Assembly (NCBI RefSeq): GCF_009914755.1
Contig: NC_060930.1
Direction: 5' to 3' (one strand)
DNA: 64,000 nt
DNA from: the human T2T-CHM13v2.0 reference genome, Homo sapiens
Positions within the stretch are counted from its first letter, which is position 1; every line of letters begins with the position of its first letter. Made by a program: the position numbers and the translations under genes. Below, one piece after another: positions 3,760 to 53,550 of the stretch. Below the pieces are notes generated by a model, which saw only the letters and a program-made list of their open reading frames with translations, did no database searches and was not told the DNA's origin.

Positions 3760-4830
3760 TTAGGAAAATTCAAGATTCCTGCCTCATTCAAATGGAGGGC
3801 TAAATGCAGGGTAGGAATAGCAAGAAGGTATTTTCTTTCAAGCCCATTTCCCTCTTCTTTCAGGCTGTTAAAACATGTTCACTTGTTCACCTGCTAGTGG
3901 CCATTGGCTCAGGGAAAGTGAATCAGATCCCTTGTTCAAGGGGATAAATTTAGTTACTCTTAGCCAATCATGGTGATTCTATTCTGCTTTTCAGAGACTG
4001 GTTTAACAAGAGTCATGTGATCTTTCTGGTCAATGAAAGATAAGGGGAAGCCAGCCTGGAGTTGCTTCAGAAAGGCTGCTCTTAAACAGAAACATATTTG
4101 AAGAAACAGTAACTTTATTCTGACTCTTTATGTGTGTGGCGGAGGAAGTGATGCCTAGAGCTACTACAGGCACTTAGGCCATGAGGAGAACCAGTGTAAG
4201 TCAGCAAGCCAAGATGCTAAAGACAGCAGAATAAGAAAATGGCAAGAATCTTGTCCTTGATGCTGTTGAGCTACTGAATTAACCAGGGCTGCAACTCCCT
4301 GTATTAGTAAGGATTCTCCAGAGGAACAGAACCAATAGAATGTATATATAAGTATATAATAAGGAATTAGCTCATGCAGTTACAGAGGCTGACAAATTCC
4401 AATATCTGCAGTTGGCAAGCTGGAGACTCAGGAGAACTGACGGTGTAGTCTAACGGCTAGCAGGCCCAAGAACCAGGAAAAGCTGATTAAAGTTCAAAGG
4501 CGGGGAAAAAAAACCCAATGTCCCAACTTGAAGGCATTTAGGCAGGAGGAATTCCCTCTTATTTATGAGACTGTCAGCCTTTTTGTTCTATTTAGGCTAT
4601 CAATTGTTTTGATGAGGCCCACAACATTAGAAAGGGCAGTGTGCTTTGCTCAGTCTATCAATTTCAACGTTAAACTCATCCAGTATAATGTTTGATCAAC
4701 TATCTGGGTATGCCATGGTTCAGTCAACTTGACACATAAAGTTAACCAATCGTCAAAACCCCCTACTTTTGGTTTCTTGATAAATAAAATAATATTTATC
4801 TTCTGTTTTAGTGGAATAAAGGTATGGAAA
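3760..4830 (+). mobile_element. Old MaLR LTR (MLT1J/K/L-like) interrupted by MLT2B
   Basis: AGCCAATCATGGTGATTC...CATGTGATCTTTCTGGTCAATGA...GAGCTACTGAATTAACC motifs; resumes after ~4756. Confidence 0.5.
4300..4755 (-). mobile_element. MLT2B-like ERVL solo LTR
   Basis: TGTATTAGTAAGGATTCTCCAGAGGAACAGAACCAATAG start; CAACTTGACACATAAAGTTAACC end. Confidence 0.85.
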
Positions 4831-17848: not shown

Positions 17849-18298
17849 TGTATTAGGGTTCTCTAGAGGGACAGAACGAATAGGATAGATGTATATACAT
17901 ACAGGGGAGTTTATTAAGGAGTATTAACTCACACAATCACAGGGTGAGGTCCCACAACAGGCTGTCTGAAAACTGAGGCGCAAGAAAGCCAGTCCAAATC
18001 CCAAAGCTGAAGAAATTTGACTCTGATATTTGAGGGCAGGAAGCATCCAGCACAGAAGAAAGATGGAGGCTGGGAGGCTAGGCCAGTCTAGTCTCTTCAC
18101 GTTCTTCTGTCTGCTTTTATTCTAGCTGCACTGGCAGCTGATTAGATTGTGCCCACCCAGATTGAGGGTGGGTCTGCCTTTCCCAGTCCACTGACTCAAA
18201 TGTTAATCTCCTTTGGCAACAACCTCACAGACACACCCGGGAACAATACTTTGCATCCCTCAATCCAATCAAGTTGACACTCAATATTAACCATCACA
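17849..18298 (-). mobile_element. MLT2A (HERV-L) solo LTR
   Basis: TGTATTAGGGTTCTCTAGAGGGACAGAAC...ATTAACCATCACA; perfect 5-bp TSD CCTTG (17844-17848, 18299-18303). Confidence 0.93.
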
Positions 18299-43927: not shown

Positions 43928-46800
43928 TCACTGATTCTTTCTCATCTTCATGAGTTTGTCTAGTTTCAGTCTTTGAGGCTGCTGACCCTTGGATGAGGTT
44001 TTTGTGGGAACATTTTTTTTGGTTGATGCTGTTGTTTTGCTTTCTGTTTGTTTGTTTTTCTTCCAATAGTCAGGTCCCTCTTCTGTAGGGCTGCTGTGGC
44101 TTCCTGGGGTTCATTTCAGGCCCTATTCATCTGGTTCACTTCCATGCCTGGAGATGTCACTTGAGGAGGCTGGAGGACAGCAAAGATGGGTGCCTGCTCC
44201 TTCCTCTGGGATCTCTGACCTCAAAGGGCACTGACCTGATTCCAGTAGGAATGCTCCTGTACAGGGTGTCTGACAACCCTTGTTGGAGGGTCTCACTCAG
44301 TTAGGTGGTATGGAATGCAGGACCCAATTAATGAAGCACTTTGGCTGTCCCTTGGTAGGGGGCTGGTGTGCTGCCATGTGGGGGAAACCCACTCATCTGG
44401 GCTTCCTGTATTCCTCAGAACTAGCAGGAGGAAACACTAAGTCTGCTGGTTCATGGAGACTATGGCCACCCCTCCTGCTAGGGGCTTAGGCCCAGGGAGA
44501 TTACGGTTCTGTCCCTGAGCCCCTGGCTGGAGTTGTTGGAGTTCCTGCAGTGAGGCCCCACCCAGTGAGGAGGGATGGGTCAGGGTCAGACCTGAAGAGG
44601 CACTCTGGCTGTAGTCTGCCACAGCCGGTGTGTTGGGCTGTGGGGGATACCTCTTGGGACCAAGCCATCCAGCCTCCCTGGCTCCAGCAGGGGAAAAGCA
44701 TGACCTGGAGCTATGGAGATGGCTGCTGCCCTTCCCTTGCCCTGGGGGCTTAGTGTGTTAGGCAGCTAGCAGTCCCAGTGTTGGCTGCCATCCCTCCCTC
44801 AAGGAGCTCAAATGGCTTAGACAGCGGGAAGCCGCAGCTGTGGTGCTGGCCGCCCCTTCCCCCAATAACTCTGCAGGCTTAGGCAGATTCTAGCTGAGTG
44901 GCTGTTGAAAATCTATGTGGCTTCATGGTTGGGACCCTAGACCTGGGTGGCATGGGCTCATGAGTGGGATCTTCCATTGCACAGTTCCATGGGAAAAGCA
45001 TGGTTTCCCAGGCTGAGTAGCATGCTTGCTCACTGCCTTCTTGGCTGGTGGGTGGGGGCTCCCCTGACCCTTGTGGGTCTCAGGTAGGCCGCAGAACCAC
45101 ACTGCTCTTCCTTTCTCTTGGTGGGTCATGCCAGCCGCCTAGTCAGTGCTGATGACAGAACCTGGATACCTCGGTTGCCAGCACAGGATTTGCAGGCTGT
45201 TTTGTTTCTTTTTGATGCAAGCCTCCGATTGTGGCTGCTTCTAGTCATCCATCTTGGGCGTGCCCCCCAGTTGCCTTTCCAGACCTGTGTAGGGCAGAGC
45301 CTTTGGGTTTATGTATAGAAAGAATGCAAATGCAAAACATTAAATTTCAAGCCAGTAGATAATGGTTCTCAATCCTTTTAACTGGATGCCCCAGCAGATC
45401 ACAGAACAGCAACATGAGTTCTAGAACAAATGCAAAAGGTGCTCTGGTAGAGGACTTCCTGCCAGAACAAGTTTTCAATGACAAATATGACCTGTTTTGG
45501 ATAAGACGTATTCTAGACTTTTATTTACTCTGCTTTTAAGTATTATATATATTTAGCCCTTAATTTTTTGTTCCTGTCAAACCTTTTATTTTCCACGAAG
45601 AAGTATTGTCAACCAACCATTCTGCCAGCCCCAGAACTTTTCACATGCAACTTTTTCTCCCCATGGTTGGCAAGGGATCACTGTAATTATTTCAGGCATG
45701 AAAATAAGCATTTATACACTTACTTTTCATTACCTTAAGAAAAACTGAACAAGTAACTGGAAGCATTTTAATAAGTGTGGCAGGGCAAGGTATTAATAAT
45801 TTACAGGAGCAATATCCCTGTACACAATCCCTTCCTCGCCCCATTGGAGTAGTCTTATCAGAAAAAAGAAAAAATAATAAGAGCTGATTATTCCCATGGA
45901 AGATTGTCCTGAGGGCATTTGTAAAGGTAAAACTTTGAAGCTGCAGTCTTGGCACCTGTAGTTGAGAAGATGTCTCACTGAAGGGACCTGGGACAGACCC
46001 ATCTCTGATTCTCTATGGGCTGCTATGTTACCAGTTCTCAAAGATGGGGGAAGAGAATTGTGCTCAGGCTGAGTTCTGCACTCAAATGAGGAACGGTAAG
46101 ATGGCAACCACAATGGAATAAGAACCTGCCCTCCCCCACCCTTTTTCTCTGGACCTTGTCAGCCCTAGGATCCTTGTAAAGTCCCTCCCTTGAAGGGAGT
46201 GGAAGTAAGTATGTACCAATGACTGATATTGATCAGCTGCTTTCCTACCTAGGTGAGCAAGGGCTCAGATTGCAGAGTAATTTGATATAGAAAACTAAAT
46301 TGAACAATTCTAGCACCTTGTGTTATGCAGGAACTTATTCATGTTATATATGATGATGGATATTGCCTACCATTTTTTAATAAAATTGATTTCCACAAGA
46401 CCTGTTTTTTTGGGGGGTTGGGTAGGGGGGCTTGATTTTTCCTACAGGAAGATGAGTCTTTCCCTGGATCAAGTGTGGGAGAAAGAGGGGAAGACCGTGG
46501 AACTGGTTCTGAGCAAAAGTGTAAGTTACACTATTATGGAAAAGATCTATGCACATTTTGAAACTCGAAGGTTTTCCAGAATTATTGAGTTTATACAAAT
46601 TCTGTTTTTAAGGCTGAATTAGCAGCTATCAGAATCCATTACAATTTTTTTGTTTTCTTTTTCTTTTTCTTTTTTTCTATAATAGAATAGGCTTGCTGTT
46701 GAGGAAATGTGTGAAAATACCAGTGGGGGAGCAGATTTTTCTAACTGATTAAAATATGTGGAGCTGCTGCAATGATTTCCTCTGTGTTTCCTTTGGCTAC

Positions 46801-46863
46801 AGATAATACCACAAAGCTAACTCAGTGACGCACATGGCCAGCTGATAACAGCTGACACATGTG
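46801..46863. promoter_or_regulatory. Dense GATA/RUNX/CRE-half/E-box motif cluster (candidate enhancer)
   Basis: AGATAA, ACCACA, TGACG, CACATG, CAGCTG, TGATAA, CAGCTG, CACATGTG within 63 bp of non-repeat DNA. Confidence 0.4.
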
Positions 46864-47169
46864 AATCGAAAGCCAAGTGTGTATTATCAGAAAGTGAGTT
46901 AAAAACCCATAAAACTCCCCACTGTCTGACTTGAAAACATTCCTCTTGAAATTTTAATGACATGGTAGGTAATATTTTTAATTCTGCGTGCTAAAACACT
47001 TCCAGTGAAATCTGAGAGTAAAAGCATGTCCCTTTAATCAATATGAGCTAGATATACAACCTAAGTATTAATATATTCCTGCAATAGCAGGATTCCTGAG
47101 AATTGCGTAAAATTGGTATCATTCATTAGGATGTACAACTAAATATTGGACGATCTTGATTTGCCTTTT

Positions 47170-47735
47170 AAAATTTAATTTTAATATTGTAATCAAACAT
47201 TGACAAAGTTAAAAAACTCCAACAGTACCATAGCTTTAAAAAGAAAACCAGCAGTCCTCTGCTAAAACCCTTCCCATCACAGATTCCTGTTCCCTGGAGA
47301 TACTTTCAATTATTGTAGTCGTTATGTTTATTGTTTACTGTAATATTTTAAAATAATCTTATACTATTATTTCTTCAATTTTAATTCATAAAAATTATCT
47401 AATGACTTCATATTACTGAAGATATGAATTTTGGTCTCTTCTACTGCCCACTTCTCTGTTCACACTTTCCTTTTCCTATCCTTCCAATGCGACTTTTGAT
47501 GAAATCAGTTTGGTACATTTTTCTTGGTTAAATTCCCTGCTTATTATGATTATTTAAACATAATTCACCACTGAGCCATAGTGAATTATGATCCTATTTC
47601 TTTCTTATACAGCTTTTCATTTTTCATACTAATTGCTTTTTGTCAAGTTTAGTCTTCTATGCAGCCATCATTAATTTATTCCCAAACTTCCCACAGGACT
47701 TCAGATCTTCTCTCATCTCTCAATATGTTAAAATA
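47170..47735 (-). mobile_element. Old L1M remnant
   Basis: Degenerate T-rich L1ME-like sequence. Confidence 0.4.
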
Positions 47736-47756
47736 CACCTAAAAGTTAAATAAAAA

Positions 47757-47896
47757 AATAAGCTAATAGGTACTAGGCTTAATACCTGTGTGACAAAATA
47801 ATCTGCACAAGAAACCCCTATGACACAAGTTTAGCTACATAACAAATCTGCACATGTACCCCTGAACTTAGAATAAAAGTTAACTAAAAAAAAAAA
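47757..47896 (+). mobile_element. Short L1PA (13-16-like) 3' end
   Basis: GGTACTAGGCTTAATACCTG...TGCACATGTACCCCTGAACTTAGAATAAAAGTTAA + A-tail. Confidence 0.88.
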
Positions 47897-47906
47897 GTCC
47901 ACCAAA

Positions 47907-48330
47907 TGTGGGCCATGAAGATGCGCAGCCCAGATCTCCTTACAGAGTCTGCTATAGGACACATGGGGATTGCCTTCAGTTGCTGCTCCTACAGCTGCTT
48001 AGAACATGCTTCCCCTAGGTTGTTCTCGGCCAATGACTGAACATGGCTGGGGTATTAGGGCCTAGTCCTGTCCTAGTACCAATGAACAACTTTTGTGTGG
48101 GACTCCCCTCTCCACTGGCCTGGCTACAACTTTCTCAGAACTGTGCTGTGGTCTGGGGCTTTTCTACCCAATCCTCCCTTCCCTCTCCTTTCAAAAGGTC
48201 ATATCTGCAAACAGTTATCCCTGCCTAATCCTGGTCTGGCCCCCTTTATCCTTCACAGACATTCCCCCCAGTAAATTTCTTGCACATCCAATCTCATCTT
48301 GGCACCTGCTTCTCAAAACGGGGCCCTGAG
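47907..48330 (+). mobile_element. LTR16-type ERVL LTR
   Basis: TGTGGGCCATGAAGATGCGC...GGCCAATGACTG...TAAATTTCTTGCAC...CATCTTGGCACCTGCTTCTC. Confidence 0.75.
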
Positions 48331-48769
48331 AGGAGTCTGAGAAAGCAGGCTCTAAGATGGACATGTGGATTGGCTTACTCTTTGCCCTGATGGTGGTAAG
48401 GAGGACCCCATCCTGAGAGTAATATGAGGTCAATGGAACCTGGTACAGTTGGAGGCTCAATTACTTAAATCTCACTTGTGGTGATTTGGGAAAACAGCCA
48501 GAGGGCTGATGATTGCTAAGTTATATTGATGTCCTACAAAGGATAATGAAAAACTGAGAGTGATTAACAAATAGTGAAAGGCTAAATGTAAGTGCCAGAG
48601 GGACTGTTGGTAGTTCACAAATAGGTCCTTATCTTCCACAGTAGAAGAACATACACAGCTGAGAAGCAGACATGGGATTTTATAGTTAAAGTCACAAAGC
48701 CTCAGAAACATTTAAATGCTCAGCTGAGGCAGGTTCTGGAACCCTGACACATGCGATAGAGACATCTAG

Positions 48770-49077
<308 letters not shown>

Positions 49078-49379
49078 AAGGGTCTTGACACTACAGATCC
49101 CCTGAACCCTCAGAGCTTACGGAGACATCTCCTTTTTCCATAGCAAGGGCTACTGCTTCCTCTAATTGGAAGATGCTGGAGAGGCCTCTTCCCAATCAGG
49201 CAAGCGCCGCCTCAGGAATGCCTCCATTCCTGAGGGTCAAATCCCAGTGCAGCTTCATGGGGAATGTGCTGGGCCTGGTAAGAAAGGAAAGAAACCATGT
49301 ACTAAAGGAACAGCAGGAACTAGTTAGCATGAACTAGCAGAAGCCAGGGGAGTATATTAGTGATTGGATTTTGAGGAGG

Positions 49380-49744
49380 TGATATGGTTTGGCTCTGCGT
49401 CCCCATCAAAATCTCATCTTGTAGCTCCTATAATTTCCACATGTTGTTGGGGGGATCCGGTGGGAGACTATTGAATCATGGGGGTGGGTCTTTCCCATGC
49501 TGTTCTCATGATAGTGAATGGGTCTCACAAGATCTGATGGTTTGAAAAACAGGAGTTTCTCTGCACAAGCTCTCTTTGCCTGCCACCATCCATGTAAGAT
49601 GTGACTTGCTTCTTCTTGCCTTCCACCATGATTGTGAGGCCTTTCCAGCCACATGGAACTGTGAGTTCAAGTAAACCTCTTTCTTTTGTAAATTGCCCAG
49701 TCTCGGGCATGTCTATATCAGTAGCATGCAAATGAACTAATACA
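49380..49744 (+). mobile_element. THE1 MaLR solo LTR
   Basis: TGATATGGTTTGGCTCTG...GAACTAATACA; degenerate TSD GGAGG/AAAGG. Confidence 0.93.
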
Positions 49745-50880
49745 AAAGGCTTGATCAAGGGGACCGAGAAATGAAATTGTATAAGCAAAATTTATTGACT
49801 TGGGGGTACTTTCTTGGGACATAGGATCCTGGCAAGGACCCCAAGTGATGGAACAAACTTGTTGCCAGCATGGACCTTTGAAACCTGGAAAAAGCAATGG
49901 TCTGAATGAAGTGGAAATGCCAGACATCAGAAGAATTACAAAGGCTAAGGGAATCAGGCAAAGAGTGAAGACTTTAAATCAGATGTTAATGCCTACCAGA
50001 AAGCATACACCATGGAAGAGGCACTGAACAACTAAATTGACAAAATAACTTGGTCATTTGGCATTATCCAGTCTTCATGATTGGTCACTCTGGTACTAAT
50101 GGGAAAGGAATAATAACATAGTGGTCATCATGGTGGCAGAGATGAAAGATATACATGGGCCCAACAGTGGGAACTTTCCCACTTACCAAGGTCAATCTAC
50201 CTACTGCTGCCTCTGAACATCCAGTTTGTCATTAACCAAGATCAACACTGAGCCCTGATATGGCATTATTGCTCTAGGGGACCAAATAACCACTTGGTGG
50301 CAAACCAACCAAATTGGGTCTCTTATCTGGTGGATGGACCAGCAGTTCGTCCACTCTGGGACAGATACCTATTCTGGGTATGATTTCCTGCCCACTGAGA
50401 TTCAGCTAACACTGTTTTCTGGGGGCTTAAAGAATACTTGACTCATAGGCATGGAATCCTGTACAGCATAGCATCAGACAGGGGACTCACTTCACAGTGA
50501 TGTAGGTGTGGGAGTAGGGCTATGACATGGGATTCACTGATCCTATCACCTACTGCATCATTTAGAAGCAGCTGCTCCATAGAGGGTTGGGATGACTTTC
50601 TAAAGGCACAGTGAGAGTCCTAGTTAGGAGGCAATACTCTGTGAGGATGGTGTATCATTATTCAGGATGTAGTATATGCATTAGACTGGAGAACTTCATA
50701 TTGTATTGTGACCCCAGGAGGACGAATACATGGATCTGGGTACCAAGGAGGTGGAACCAGAAATAGCTCCATCCCAGTGATCTGCTGGGGGCCTTTGTAC
50801 TTTCCATCTTGCAACTTTGGGCTCTGCATGATTGAAAGTCTGTACTAGTTTGGGTTCTCTAGAGAAACAGAACCAATAGG

Positions 50881-50916
<36 letters not shown>

Positions 50917-50918
50917 CT

Positions 50919-50979
50919 TCCATTCCTGAGGGCCAAATCCCAGTACAGCTTCATGGGGAATGTGCTGGGCCTGGTAAGA
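50919..50979 (+). repeat. Direct local copy of 49223-49283 (59/61 identical)
   Basis: Manual alignment. Confidence 0.95.
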
Positions 50980-51419
50980 TGTGTGTGTGTATGTGTATTT
51001 TTATATATAATATATGTCCTATATATTTAGAAGTACATATATACTTCTTATATACTTATATATACTATTTATTTACTTATATATATAATCTTATGTTCTA
51101 TCTATTTAGAAGTATGTATATGTCCTATACATTTAGAAGTATATATTTTTATATACAATATATAGTCCTATATATTTACACTTTATATATACACATTATA
51201 TTAAATATATATACATTATATGGTACCTTCATATTAAATACATAAAGTATATGATATACTTCCTAATATATAGGACATATATTAAGAATATATGTTTTTA
51301 TATCTCTCTATATATTTATATGTATAGAGACATATCCTATATGTATATTCTTAGTATATATGTACTATATAAAGGACATATACAAATATATATGGTTTTT
51401 TTAATAAGTTTTTTTTATT

Positions 51420-51550
51420 TTTTAGTTGTATTTTAACATATTGAGAGATGAGAGAAGATCTGAAGTCCTGTGGGAAGTTTGGGAATAAATTAATGATGGC
51501 TGCATAGAAGACTAAACCTGACAAACAACAATTAGTATGAAAAATGAAAA
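51420..51550 (-). repeat. Inverted local copy of 47614-47744 (127/131 identical)
   Basis: Manual alignment to the reverse complement. Confidence 0.95.
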
Positions 51551-52637
51551 TATACAAATGTATATGTCCTTAATCTATATAGGACATATATATTAAGAAT
51601 ATATCTCTGTATATCTCTTATCTTTCTATCTATGGAGGGATTGATTTATTATAAGAAATTGGCTTACAAAATTATGGAAGCTGAGAAGTCCCATGACCTG
51701 TAGTCAGTAAGCTGAAGACCCAGGTGATCTGGTATTAACGGTATAGTTTCAGTCCAAGTCTGAAGGCCTGAGAACCAGGAGAGCTGGTGGTGCAAGTTCC
51801 AGTCTGAATGCCAGCAAATACTGATGTTGCAGTCTAAAAATAGGCAGAGGGAGTGAATTCTCCCTCACACTGCCTTGTATTCTACTTAGGCCACCAACAG
51901 ATTGGGTGAGGCCCACCCACACTGGGGAGGGCAATCTGCTTTACTCAGTCTGCTGGTTCAAATGTTAACCTCATCCAGAAAGACCCTCGCAGACACACCC
52001 AGAATAATGTTTAACCATATATCTGGGCACCCTGTGGACCAGTCAGGCTGATACATAAAATTAACCATCACAAAGTCTATGTCCCCAAAGGGAGTCATTC
52101 TTGCAAAGAGACACAGTAAAGGTCTCCTTGAATTATAAGCTACAGCTACTGCCAGACCACTTTTAATTTCCTGTGTCCAAGGACCAGAAATTGGGGACAG
52201 GAGGCACCATCTTGGCAGGGGCAGTTGGCAAGAGAAGGTAAGACTGCTTTCCCACAATGGGAGCAGGAAGGAATTCATGTGGAACCAGGTGGTCCTCTGG
52301 GTACCGCGCTGCCCAGTGTAACTGTGAGTGGGCACATGCAGCAATCCTAACCTGAAAAGTCTCTGATTAGAAAGAGCTCAGGCTCCTCAAGAGCAAAGTT
52401 TTGGGTGAAACCACCAGGTCAGCCTGAAGACTTTCTGAGGTGACAGCTGAAGATTAGTGGAATTCTGAGTAAATAACGATGAAAGGAGAGGACGAGTGCC
52501 CATGGCATCCCTAAAACCACCTGCAGTGACGCAACCATCATGCATCCCACCAGCTTTCCTCTTCTCAGATTCCTTTCAAGAAGAGAGGCCCATGACACTT
52601 TGGAGGAACTGCTCCTCAAATGTGCCTGAAATGAATC

Positions 52638-52842
52638 TTTTTTTTTTTCCCTTGGCTTCAGCATCCCAAGTAGCTGGGATTACAGGCGTCCACCACCATG
52701 CCTGGCTAATTTTTGTATTTTTAGTAGAGACGGGGTTTCACCATGTTGGCTAGGCTGGTCTCGAGCTCCTGACCTCAGGTGATCCACCCGCCTCGGCCTC
52801 CCAGAGTGCCGGGATTACAGACATGAGCCACCGAGTGCAGCT
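52638..52842 (-). mobile_element. AluS lacking the distal right arm but keeping its tail and TSD
   Basis: Poly-T joined directly to CCTTGGCTTCAGCATCCC; TSD GAA(AT/GC)GAATCTTT. Confidence 0.9.
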
Positions 52843-52899
52843 GAGAAGCGAATCTTTCAAGAAGTGTGGCTATAATGACAACAAGAGAGAAGGGAGAAA

Positions 52900-53550
52900 C
52901 CATGTCAAGAAACAGTTTATTTAATATGAGGGAGTGTATTTTAAAGAACGCAAAGTGGGAGCGACTTATTGAAGATATAAGAGAGAGGGAAGAGATAAGT
53001 GATTGACAATAAGTTGTCCCTGAGAAGATAGGAAGAAATAGGACCTTGGCAGAGGAGTGGTCAGGAGAAAAGAGAAAGATGCTCTACTGTGATCAGAGAA
53101 AAGAGTCAAAGGAGAGGTATGAGCCTACATTTATAGTTTTGGATGCAGATGGTGAGGGCATTCCTATGTGATGGGTTCTTTTTCTATTTGAAGTTTGAGG
53201 CAACTTTGCTTAGACTGAATGGCACTTGGTAGCATGAGAGTGGTGTGAAAAGAGAGGTGAGGTGATTGTGGGAATAGTAGGTGCAATTGAGATATTTGTT
53301 CAAAAACAAGTGGATCTTTAAAATCATTTTTTGAGCACTAACAATGTCAGGCACACTACTGAGCTCTTTTCCGCATTATTTCTAATATTTAAACCTATCA
53401 TACTTACTCTGAGAATTAATGAATATTGCCTTTAATTTATTGGAAAAGAATGTTTTCTTACTTGTCCAATTCATTCCTTTACTTGTTTAACATATATTTA
53501 CTGAGCTTCAATTATATGGCAAGCACTGTTCTCAGCATAGTAAGTAAGTG
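52900..53550 (-). mobile_element. L2/MIR remnants
   Basis: Purine-rich L2-like sequence; TTGAGCACTAACAATGTCAGGCAC; CATATATTTACTGAGC. Confidence 0.5.

What the first reader, a model, noticed from the sequence alone, without database searches (positions are those of the whole stretch)
50883..51640. An LTR microsatellite that captured two pieces of nearby DNA, one direct and one inverted
Seen: the simple-repeat core of this MLT2B LTR is ~750 bp, against tens of bp in the MLT2 copies at 4300 and 17849, yet the LTR TSD (AAGTC) is intact. It holds two foreign blocks that match donors ~1.7 kb (direct, 59/61) and ~3.8 kb (inverted, 127/131) upstream, both ~97% identical. Established: TA-rich and CA/TG repeats can form cruciforms and break, and MMBIR/FoSTeS or Pol-theta repair can copy nearby templates into a break. 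Inference: a fossil multi-template repair event much younger than the host elements. Equal divergence is compatible with one event, plausibly in the ape lineage.
Basis: partly seen in the sequence, partly recalled or inferred. Interest (0 to 1): 0.8.

Follow-up and report, generated by a model that had tools for sequence, protein, structure and literature searches.

The report
Old LTR repeat captured nearby DNA
The unstable, hairpin-forming repeat inside an ancient retroviral LTR on human chromosome 6 has picked up copies of two pieces of DNA lying a few kilobases upstream, which is a clear but ordinary fossil of error-prone break or replication repair.

Summary
Window 50919-50979 is a direct copy of 49223-49283 (59/61). 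Window 51410-51550 is an inverted copy of 47614-47758 (137/141 plus one 4-nt indel). In the whole assembly each block has only two places: itself and the local donor. Old diverged paralogues run across the block edges at both upstream sites, so those are the sources and the LTR copies are derived.

The host is a solo MLT2-type LTR (50841-52073, AAGTC on both sides). Paralogous "empty sites" support this. Its simple-repeat core is about 753 bp.

- Each block sits at the centre of an inverted repeat.
- Block 2 is flanked by a 17-nt direct duplication (16/17) that spans a perfect 12+12-nt palindrome.
- Block 2 is joined through a 15-nt T-rich filler.

My best reading is template switching during repair of breaks or stalled forks at hairpin centres (MMBIR/FoSTeS-like). 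Pooled divergence is 3.0% (CI 1.1-6.4%), roughly 12-30 Myr.

One event or two cannot be decided here. For block 2, an RNA or retro-type insertion remains a live rival. This is a known kind of mutation, of modest interest. Primate orthologues and long reads could not be examined.

The parts
47614..47758 (+). Donor 2, the source of the inverted block. It ends in an A7 run (47752-47758) that includes AATAAA.
   Evidence: Searches give the alignment. Searches find only this place and the copy in the genome. A chr15 paralogue at 70% identity crosses the left edge at 47614.
49223..49283 (+). Donor 1, the source of the direct block.
   Evidence: 59/61. One search finds only two places in the genome. 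Five diverged paralogues (72-79%) run from about 49260 across the right edge at 49283 to about 49380.
50836..50840 (.). Left copy of the 5-nt target-site duplication AAGTC of the solo LTR.
   Evidence: Paralogous copies of the flanking element lack the LTR.
50841..50882 (+). 5' part of the MLT2-type LTR.
   Evidence: Matches the other window copies at 4299-4341 and 17853-17887.
50883..50914 (.). Perfect (AC)16, the left arm of the hairpin around block 1.
50915..50918 (.). 4-nt filler (CCCT) between (AC)16 and block 1.
   Evidence: It is not part of the donor alignment.
50919..50979 (+). Block 1, a direct copy of donor 1 (59/61).
50980..50998 (.). Imperfect (TG)n, the right arm complementary to (AC)n.
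   Evidence: 18/19 against the left arm.
50999..51377 (.). AT-rich array. Forward units of about 27 nt lie at 51010-51146, a TA-rich centre at 51140-51221, and reverse-oriented units from about 51254. The array is an imperfect palindrome (51008-51284 self-inverted at 71%).
51378..51394 (.). Left copy of the 17-nt direct duplication that flanks the block 2 insertion.
   Evidence: 16/17. 51372-51383 is the exact reverse complement of 51560-51571.
51395..51409 (.). 15-nt T-rich filler (G, T7, AATAAG, T) of unknown template.
   Evidence: One search finds no other copy in the window within 1 mismatch.
51410..51550 (-). Block 2, an inverted copy of donor 2 (137/141 plus a 4-nt indel).
51550..51566 (.). 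Right copy of the 17-nt direct duplication. Its first base overlaps the last base of block 2.
51567..51635 (.). The remaining AT-rich core. 51576-51637 repeats 51267-51329 at 82%.
51636..52073 (+). 3' part of the MLT2-type LTR.
   Evidence: 5,435 first-look candidates genome-wide, of which the 40 scored are 72-81% identical (mostly 73-78%). One search shows matches to the window copies.
52074..52078 (.). Right copy of the target-site duplication AAGTC.

Best explanation
A solo MLT2-type (ERV-L) LTR carries a simple-repeat core that has grown to about 750 bp of hairpin-forming CA/TG and AT-rich palindromic repeat. At two hairpin centres in this tract, a broken or stalled 3' end left its template. 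It copied a stretch of DNA lying 1.7 kb upstream (61 nt, same orientation) or 3.7 kb upstream (141 nt, opposite strand) and then returned. At the second site the end was primed on the donor's A7 run through a T-rich end, and it re-entered 17 nt behind its point of departure, which left a 17-nt flanking duplication. This is replicative template switching of the MMBIR/FoSTeS or break-induced-replication type. It happened roughly 12-30 Myr ago and has no evident function.

Shown: the copies, their uniqueness, the donor polarity, the palindromic target sites, the flanking duplication and the filler.

Inferred: the enzymology, DNA rather than RNA as the template, and the number of events.
For: - The donors are retained and the copies are 97% identical.
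- Each block has only the local donor as a match in 3.1 Gb.
- Diverged paralogues cross the block edges at the upstream sites, so the LTR copies are derived.
- Both orientations occur, and both donors lie within 4 kb on the same side.
- The tract folds far better than shuffles: -96.4 against -59.7 kcal/mol, z = -7.4, with 0 of 20 shuffles as good.
- Block 1 lies between (AC)16 and (TG)n. In the slid control, 4 of 3,000 window positions and 39 of 570 tract positions have arms as good.
- Block 2 plus its filler lies between roughly 54-nt inverted arms. Only 5 of 450 tract positions and 1 of 3,000 window positions score as well. The insertion also sits in a perfect 12+12-nt palindrome.
- The block 2 junction falls in a homopolymer run (donor A7, copy T8), which fits microhomology priming.
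- The 17-nt flanking duplication (16/17) fits re-entry upstream. At the same gap, only the 4 positions on the true diagonal, out of 455, reach 15/17. Over all gaps of 60-299 nt, 58 of 103,320 do.
- Two independent local captures within 630 nt argue for a proximity-driven process.
- Literature: germline templated insertions with up to five templates are described (PMC8421209, passages read). Short template switches in great apes are enriched at AT-rich and poly(dA:dT) sequence (PMC7954356, abstract and section 11 read).
Against: - Microhomology at three of the four junctions is 0-2 nt, and fillers of 4 and 15 nt have no identified template.
- A 17-nt flanking direct repeat together with an A-rich end (A8-CTTATT-A7 after AATAAA, in the sense orientation) is also the look of an L1-type retro-insertion.
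- Both donors lie in the intron of one + strand lncRNA, according to the hub's annotation. An RNA template would therefore give the same sequence.
- The AT-rich tract is so repetitive that inverted arms are fairly common in it (39 of 570 positions for block 1).
- No orthologous pre-insertion allele could be examined.
Confidence: 0.6

Rival explanations
1. An RNA-templated insertion. Under this reading block 2, and perhaps block 1, was copied from nascent or intronic AHI1-DT RNA. The copying could have been done by LINE-1 ORF2p (a class 1 TSIP-like retro-insertion) or by reverse-transcribing break repair (a class 2 TSIP-like cDNA patch).
For: - Block 2 has a 17-nt flanking direct duplication (16/17), which is within the usual range for L1 target-site duplications (recalled).
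- In the sense orientation, block 2 ends in AATAAA followed by A-rich sequence (A8-CTTATT-A7), and this sits next to the duplication.
- The donor segment ends at an A7 run.
- Both donors are sense-strand intronic sequence of one lncRNA (hub annotation).
- Block 1 has no flanking duplication and a 4-nt filler, which matches class 2 TSIPs in form (PMC5110952, abstract and passages read).
Against: - The inferred first-strand nick reads TATG/TC, not TTTT/A.
- The 6 nt between the two A runs do not match the donor's downstream sequence.
- The A tail is short and interrupted.
- TSIPs are described as landing seemingly at random in the genome (PMC5110952). Here two captures come from within 4 kb, which by chance is of the order of 1 in 10^5-10^6 each (my estimate).
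- Block 1 has no A tail.
Confidence: 0.22
2. Two unrelated events at a recurrent break hotspot, rather than one multi-template event. This concerns the number of events and is compatible with either template chemistry.
For: - The junction anatomies differ. Block 1 has no flanking duplication and a 4-nt filler. Block 2 has a 17-nt duplication and a 15-nt filler.
- The blocks are separated by 430 nt of native repeat.
- The MLT2 core is unstable in other copies too: about 170 and 310 nt in 2 of the 7 measured.
Against: Divergences are indistinguishable (2/61 against 4/141, Fisher p = 1), although this test has very low power. Break-induced replication is known to switch templates repeatedly within one tract (recalled).
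Confidence: 0.5
3. An artefact or an ordinary repeat. Possible forms are an assembly chimera, two members of a young dispersed repeat family, or gene conversion between paralogues.
For: AT-rich palindromes are hard to assemble. The AT-rich array itself resembles at least 143 other AT-rich places at about 70% identity.
Against: - The copies differ from their donors by 6 substitutions and a 4-nt indel, which a collapse or chimera would not produce.
- The blocks have no other copy in the genome, so they do not belong to a young family.
- There is no flanking homology that could support conversion.
Confidence: 0.03

Closest known systems
MMBIR / FoSTeS templated insertions, including germline MMB-TI events (PMC8421209)
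   Same: These are duplicative copies of nearby sequence inserted at a break or stalled fork. Both orientations occur, several templates are possible, fillers and short microhomology are seen, and the events are associated with sequence that stalls replication.
   Different: MMB-TIs as operationally defined there are inverted copies of templates within 100 bp. Here the templates lie 1.7 and 3.7 kb away, one of them is direct, and the inserts are 61 and 141 nt. Whether a single event was involved is unknown.
Short-range template switches in great-ape genomes (PMC7954356, PMC5453318)
   Same: They are evolutionary fossils of template switching, enriched in AT-rich and poly(dA:dT) sequence with unusual secondary structure.
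   Different: Those events act over tens of bases and mostly replace sequence. This one adds 61-155 nt taken from kilobases away.
Templated sequence insertion polymorphisms, classes 1 and 2 (PMC5110952)
   Same: They are short patches of unique genomic sequence inserted elsewhere. Class 1 has a target-site duplication and an A tail, as block 2 does in part. Class 2 has fillers and no duplication, as block 1 does.
   Different: TSIP donors are distant and the insertion sites seem random. Here both donors are local. The L1 nick-site criterion is not met, and the insertions appear fixed and old rather than shown to be polymorphic.
Palindromic AT-rich repeats (PATRRs) and long (TA)n tracts as cruciform break sites (recalled from the literature; no paper on them was read here)
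   Same: An AT-rich tract of several hundred bp with palindromic symmetry, with rearrangement junctions at palindrome centres.
   Different: The arms here are only about 71-83% complementary. The outcome is local insertion, not translocation. Cruciform extrusion was not tested.
Dispersed or inverted dispersed duplications among complex structural variants (search listing only)
   Same: A segment is duplicated and inserted non-tandemly nearby, in either orientation.
   Different: Catalogued events are usually much larger, from hundreds of bp to kb. These are 61 and 141 nt and sit within a simple repeat.

Membership tests
Replicative template-switch insertion (MMBIR/FoSTeS type) | The inserted segment is a copy of another genomic segment, and that segment is retained. 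| tested here: met
   Both donors are present and 97% identical to the copies. Polarity follows from paralogues that cross the block edges.
Replicative template-switch insertion (MMBIR/FoSTeS type) | Microhomology at the switch points. | tested here: inconclusive
   A T/A homopolymer run of 7-8 nt lies at the block 2 entry and 1 nt at its exit. Block 1 has 0-2 nt. Fillers of 4 and 15 nt obscure the junctions.
Replicative template-switch insertion (MMBIR/FoSTeS type) | Several templates used within one event. | not testable with these tools
   This needs primate orthologues or a polymorphic intermediate. The divergence test has no power.
MMB-TI as defined by MMBSearch (PMC8421209) | An inverted copy of a template within 100 bp of the insertion. 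| tested here: not met
   The templates lie 1,696 nt and about 3,650 nt away, and block 1 is direct.
Class 1 TSIP / L1 ORF2p-mediated insertion | A target-site duplication of at least 5 bp. | tested here: met
   Block 2 has a 17-nt duplication at 16/17. Block 1 has none.
Class 1 TSIP / L1 ORF2p-mediated insertion | A poly(A) tract 10-30 nt downstream of a cryptic AATAAA. | tested here: inconclusive
   AATAAA is followed by A5, CTTATT and A7. The tail is short and interrupted, and the intervening 6 nt do not match the donor.
Class 1 TSIP / L1 ORF2p-mediated insertion | Insertion at a 5'-TTTT/A-3' site. | tested here: not met
   The inferred nick is TATG/TC on the + strand.
Solo LTR of the ERV-L MLT2 group | TG...CA termini, a 5-nt target-site duplication, and many diverged genomic copies. 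| tested here: met
The element starts with TG, ends with CA, and has AAGTC on both sides. There are 5,435 first-look candidates, with the scored ones mostly 73-78% identical. Four distinct paralogous places hold both flanks collinear without the LTR.
PATRR-type palindromic AT-rich repeat | A long, nearly perfect AT-rich palindrome. | tested here: not met
   The tract is AT-rich and palindromic in plan, but the arms are only 71% complementary (51008-51284) and 83% (51344-51393 against 51550-51603). Only a 12+12-nt perfect palindrome lies at the block 2 site.

The most novel reading that the evidence does not exclude
Both patches were copied from the nascent intronic RNA of the lncRNA that spans the donors and the acceptor. 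That would make this a germline fossil of transcript-templated break repair at a hairpin hotspot. It would explain why both donors are local and on the transcribed strand, and why block 2 was primed on an A tract and carries a flanking duplication. A side effect is a 141-nt, 97% inverted repeat 3.65 kb apart in one transcript, with a predicted RNA duplex of -207 kcal/mol. This could act as a long dsRNA.
Probability: 0.1. Interest if true: 0.65.

Novelty: new member of a known kind. Interest (0 to 1): 0.3.

Why it matters
This is a clean example, resolved junction by junction, of how structure-forming repeats inside old transposon remnants keep breaking and get patched with nearby sequence. The donors are unambiguous, their polarity is established, and the target was a palindrome centre. 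Cases like this could calibrate searches for kilobase-range templated insertions in primate genome alignments, which tools limited to templates within 100 bp would miss. On its own it changes no concept. Nothing seen here suggests a function.

Tried and rejected
- Further captured pieces. A 13-mer scan of 50841-51700 against the rest of the window found only the two blocks, LTR matches and simple-repeat matches.
- A template for the 15-nt filler. There is none in the window within 1 mismatch. A 6-nt match to the donor's AATAAG is too short to count.
- A young repeat family. Rejected, because each block has two genomic places only.
- The AT-rich array as a specific satellite. Its 143 or more matches at about 70% on both strands are generic AT-rich arrays.
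- Known RNA families in 46000-53000. None reached the gathering score.
- Pfam on two short translated pieces of the LTR's flanks. There was no hit. The reading of the flanking element as ERV-L pol therefore rests only on my inspection of the translations and on recall.
- Earlier findings of this scan.
- Cruciform resolution as the source of the 17-nt direct duplication. I considered this and set it aside on reasoning alone: hairpin-capped ends would give inverted duplications, not direct ones.
- No primate genomes, read data or repeat-family library were reachable. Branch placement, polymorphism and the subfamily name remain untested.

Full report
**What is there.**

The sequence at 50841-52073 begins with TG and ends with CA. 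AAGTC lies directly on both sides, at 50836-50840 and 52074-52078.

Its first 42 nt and its last ~440 nt match two other MLT-type LTRs in the window. The 3' part has 5,435 first-look candidates in the genome. The 40 that were scored are 72-81% identical, mostly 73-78%.

I fetched 11 loci through the upstream flank, representing 10 distinct places. In 4 distinct places (L034/L039, L036, L041, L042), sequences matching both flanks lie collinear on one strand, with spacing that leaves no room for a 1.2-kb LTR.

The element is therefore a solo LTR that inserted into an older interspersed element, and its target-site duplication is intact. The translated flanks look to me like retroviral integrase and dUTPase remnants (recognised from memory). 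Pfam gave no hit on two short pieces, so that identification is unverified.

**The core.**

Between the two LTR parts lie about 753 bp (50883-51635). In order, they are:
- (AC)16
- a 4-nt filler
- block 1
- imperfect (TG)n
- an AT-rich array: forward ~27-nt units at 51010-51146, a TA-rich middle, then the same units in reverse orientation
- a 15-nt filler
- block 2
- more AT-rich units

The two window copies have cores of about 20 nt. Of 11 other genomic copies, 7 could be measured. Five have cores of about 3-36 nt, and two have about 170 and 310 nt of (TCTA)n/(CA)n or AT-rich repeat (the core lengths are my arithmetic from the coordinates). Three copies had no hit to the 5' part, and I dropped one that had only an 11-nt hit.

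So the core of this LTR family is generally unstable. This copy is an extreme case, and what sets it apart is the foreign sequence inside it.

**The blocks are real, unique and derived.**

Block 1 (50919-50979) matches 49223-49283 in the same orientation at 59/61. Block 2 (51410-51550) matches 47758-47614 in inverted orientation, with 4 mismatches and one 4-nt indel.

Searches of the whole 3.1-Gb assembly found each block only at its own place and at the local donor. The tool warns that its counts are lower bounds for common repeats. For unique sequence like this, the result speaks against a young repeat family and against a better donor elsewhere.

The surroundings of donor 1 have five diverged relatives (72-79%). 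These align from about 49260 through the block's right edge at 49283 to about 49380. The surroundings of donor 2 have one relative on another chromosome (70% over 132 columns) that crosses the block's left edge at 47614.

At the LTR, similarity stops exactly at the block edges. The upstream copies therefore sit in their ancestral context, and the LTR copies are the derived ones.

**Where the insertions sit.**

As single-stranded DNA, the tract folds to -96.4 kcal/mol, against -59.7 ± 5.0 for 20 shuffles (z = -7.4).

Block 1 lies between (AC)16 and (TG)n, which are complementary (18/19). With the same gap, arms this good occur at 4 of 3,000 sampled window positions but at 39 of 570 positions inside the tract.

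Block 2 with its filler lies between inverted arms of about 54 nt (51344-51393 and 51550-51603). Arms as good occur at 5 of 450 tract positions and 1 of 3,000 window positions.

A closer look shows three further things:
- 51372-51383 is the exact reverse complement of 51560-51571.
- The 17 nt at 51378-51394 recur as a direct repeat at 51550-51566 (16/17).
- These direct repeats flank 155 inserted bases.

At that gap, only the four positions on this same diagonal reach 15/17, out of 455 tract positions. Over all gaps of 60-299 nt, 58 of 103,320 tests do.

The target of block 2 was therefore the centre of a short perfect palindrome, and the insertion duplicated 17 nt spanning that centre. Block 1 has no flanking duplication.

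**Junctions.**

The copy of donor 2 starts in the donor's A7 run, which is T8 in the copy. It is preceded by G, T7, AATAAG, T, for which I found no template. It ends with a 1-nt overlap with the duplicated 17-mer. Block 1 is preceded by CCCT and followed directly by (TG)n.

A 13-mer scan found no further pieces from elsewhere in the window.

**Age.**

Substitutions are 2/61 in block 1 and 4/141 in block 2, which pools to 6/202 = 3.0% (exact 95% CI 1.1-6.4%). Fisher's test between the blocks gives p = 1.

With recalled rates of 0.5-1.2e-9 per site per year, the point estimate is about 12-30 Myr and the interval about 5-60 Myr. This is much younger than the LTR. It is compatible with the ape stem but does not exclude early catarrhines. 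The equal divergence says almost nothing about one event versus two.

**Mechanism.**

I put about 0.6 on template switching during repair of a break or a stalled fork at a hairpin centre, with DNA as the template.

Reasons for this reading:
- The donors are retained.
- Both orientations occur.
- Both donors lie within 4 kb.
- The targets are structure-prone.
- One junction falls in a homopolymer run.
- Fillers are present.
- The flanking duplication is explained by re-entry 17 nt behind the departure point.

For block 2, the departure point lies 7 nt into the distal arm of the 12-nt palindrome. That is where a template or nascent-strand hairpin would interfere. This last point is inference.

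Published work shows that this kind of event exists in the human germline and in great-ape evolution:
- Templated insertions with up to five templates are reported, although templates were searched for only within 100 bp (PMC8421209, passages read).
- Short template switches are enriched at AT-rich and poly(dA:dT) sequence (PMC7954356, abstract and section 11 read).

**The main rival (about 0.2).**

Read on the minus strand, block 2 ends AATAAA, then A-rich sequence (A8-CTTATT-A7), and is flanked by a 17-nt direct repeat. This is the look of an L1 ORF2p-mediated insertion of a cellular RNA, as in class 1 TSIPs (PMC5110952, abstract and passages read). Both donors are sense-strand intronic sequence of one lncRNA, according to the hub annotation.

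Against this rival:
- The inferred nick site is TATG/TC rather than TTTT/A.
- The 6 nt inside the tail do not match the donor.
- Block 1 has none of these features.
- Two captures from within 4 kb would be very unlikely for a process that lands at random.

A proximity-bound variant, repair templated by nascent RNA, cannot be told apart from DNA templating by sequence alone.

**Artefact and other readings.**

An assembly chimera is unlikely, because the copies differ from the donors by six substitutions and an indel. No read data could be checked.

Gene conversion is excluded by the lack of flanking homology. No Rfam family matches the region.

**Verdict.**

The finding belongs to a known kind of mutation and has no sign of function, so its interest is modest.

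I did not search for this specific locus in print.

Noticed in passing
window 47759-47896: Directly after donor 2 lies what looks like the last ~140 nt of an old L1 with its A tail. I recognised it from memory and did not test it. The copied block stops at the A7 run that borders this fragment.
   Followed up: no
window 47614-47758 and 51410-51550: The donor and its inverted copy form a 141-nt, 97% inverted repeat 3.65 kb apart on one strand, inside the span of the AHI1-DT lncRNA. The predicted RNA duplex is -207 kcal/mol. It could be a dsRNA or editing substrate if it is transcribed.
   Followed up: partly
window 50240-50840 and 52079-52616: The LTR interrupts an older interspersed element whose two halves are contiguous at four other genomic places. 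Its translations look like retroviral integrase and dUTPase remnants with many stops. Pfam gave no hit on two short pieces.
   Followed up: partly
L025:1175-1500 and L026:1318-1500: Two other genomic copies of the same LTR family also have enlarged cores. One has about 310 nt of (TCTA)n plus (CA)n, and the other about 170 nt of AT-rich repeat. The core of this LTR family seems to be a general seed for repeat expansion.
   Followed up: partly
window 50996-51409: The AT-rich array aligns at about 70% over nearly its full length, on both strands, to at least 143 other places in the genome (619 first-look candidates, 40 scored). These appear to be generic long AT-rich palindromic arrays.
   Followed up: no
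window 51267-51329 and 51576-51637: A direct repeat (82%) includes the junction between the AT-rich core and the first bases of the LTR's 3' part. Part of the array therefore grew by duplicating a chunk that reached the edge of the non-repeat LTR sequence.
   Followed up: no
window 49383-49740 and 48775-49083: Donor 1 lies between an Alu (repeat families D1, D2 and D5) and what looks like a MaLR-type LTR (recognised from memory).
   Followed up: no
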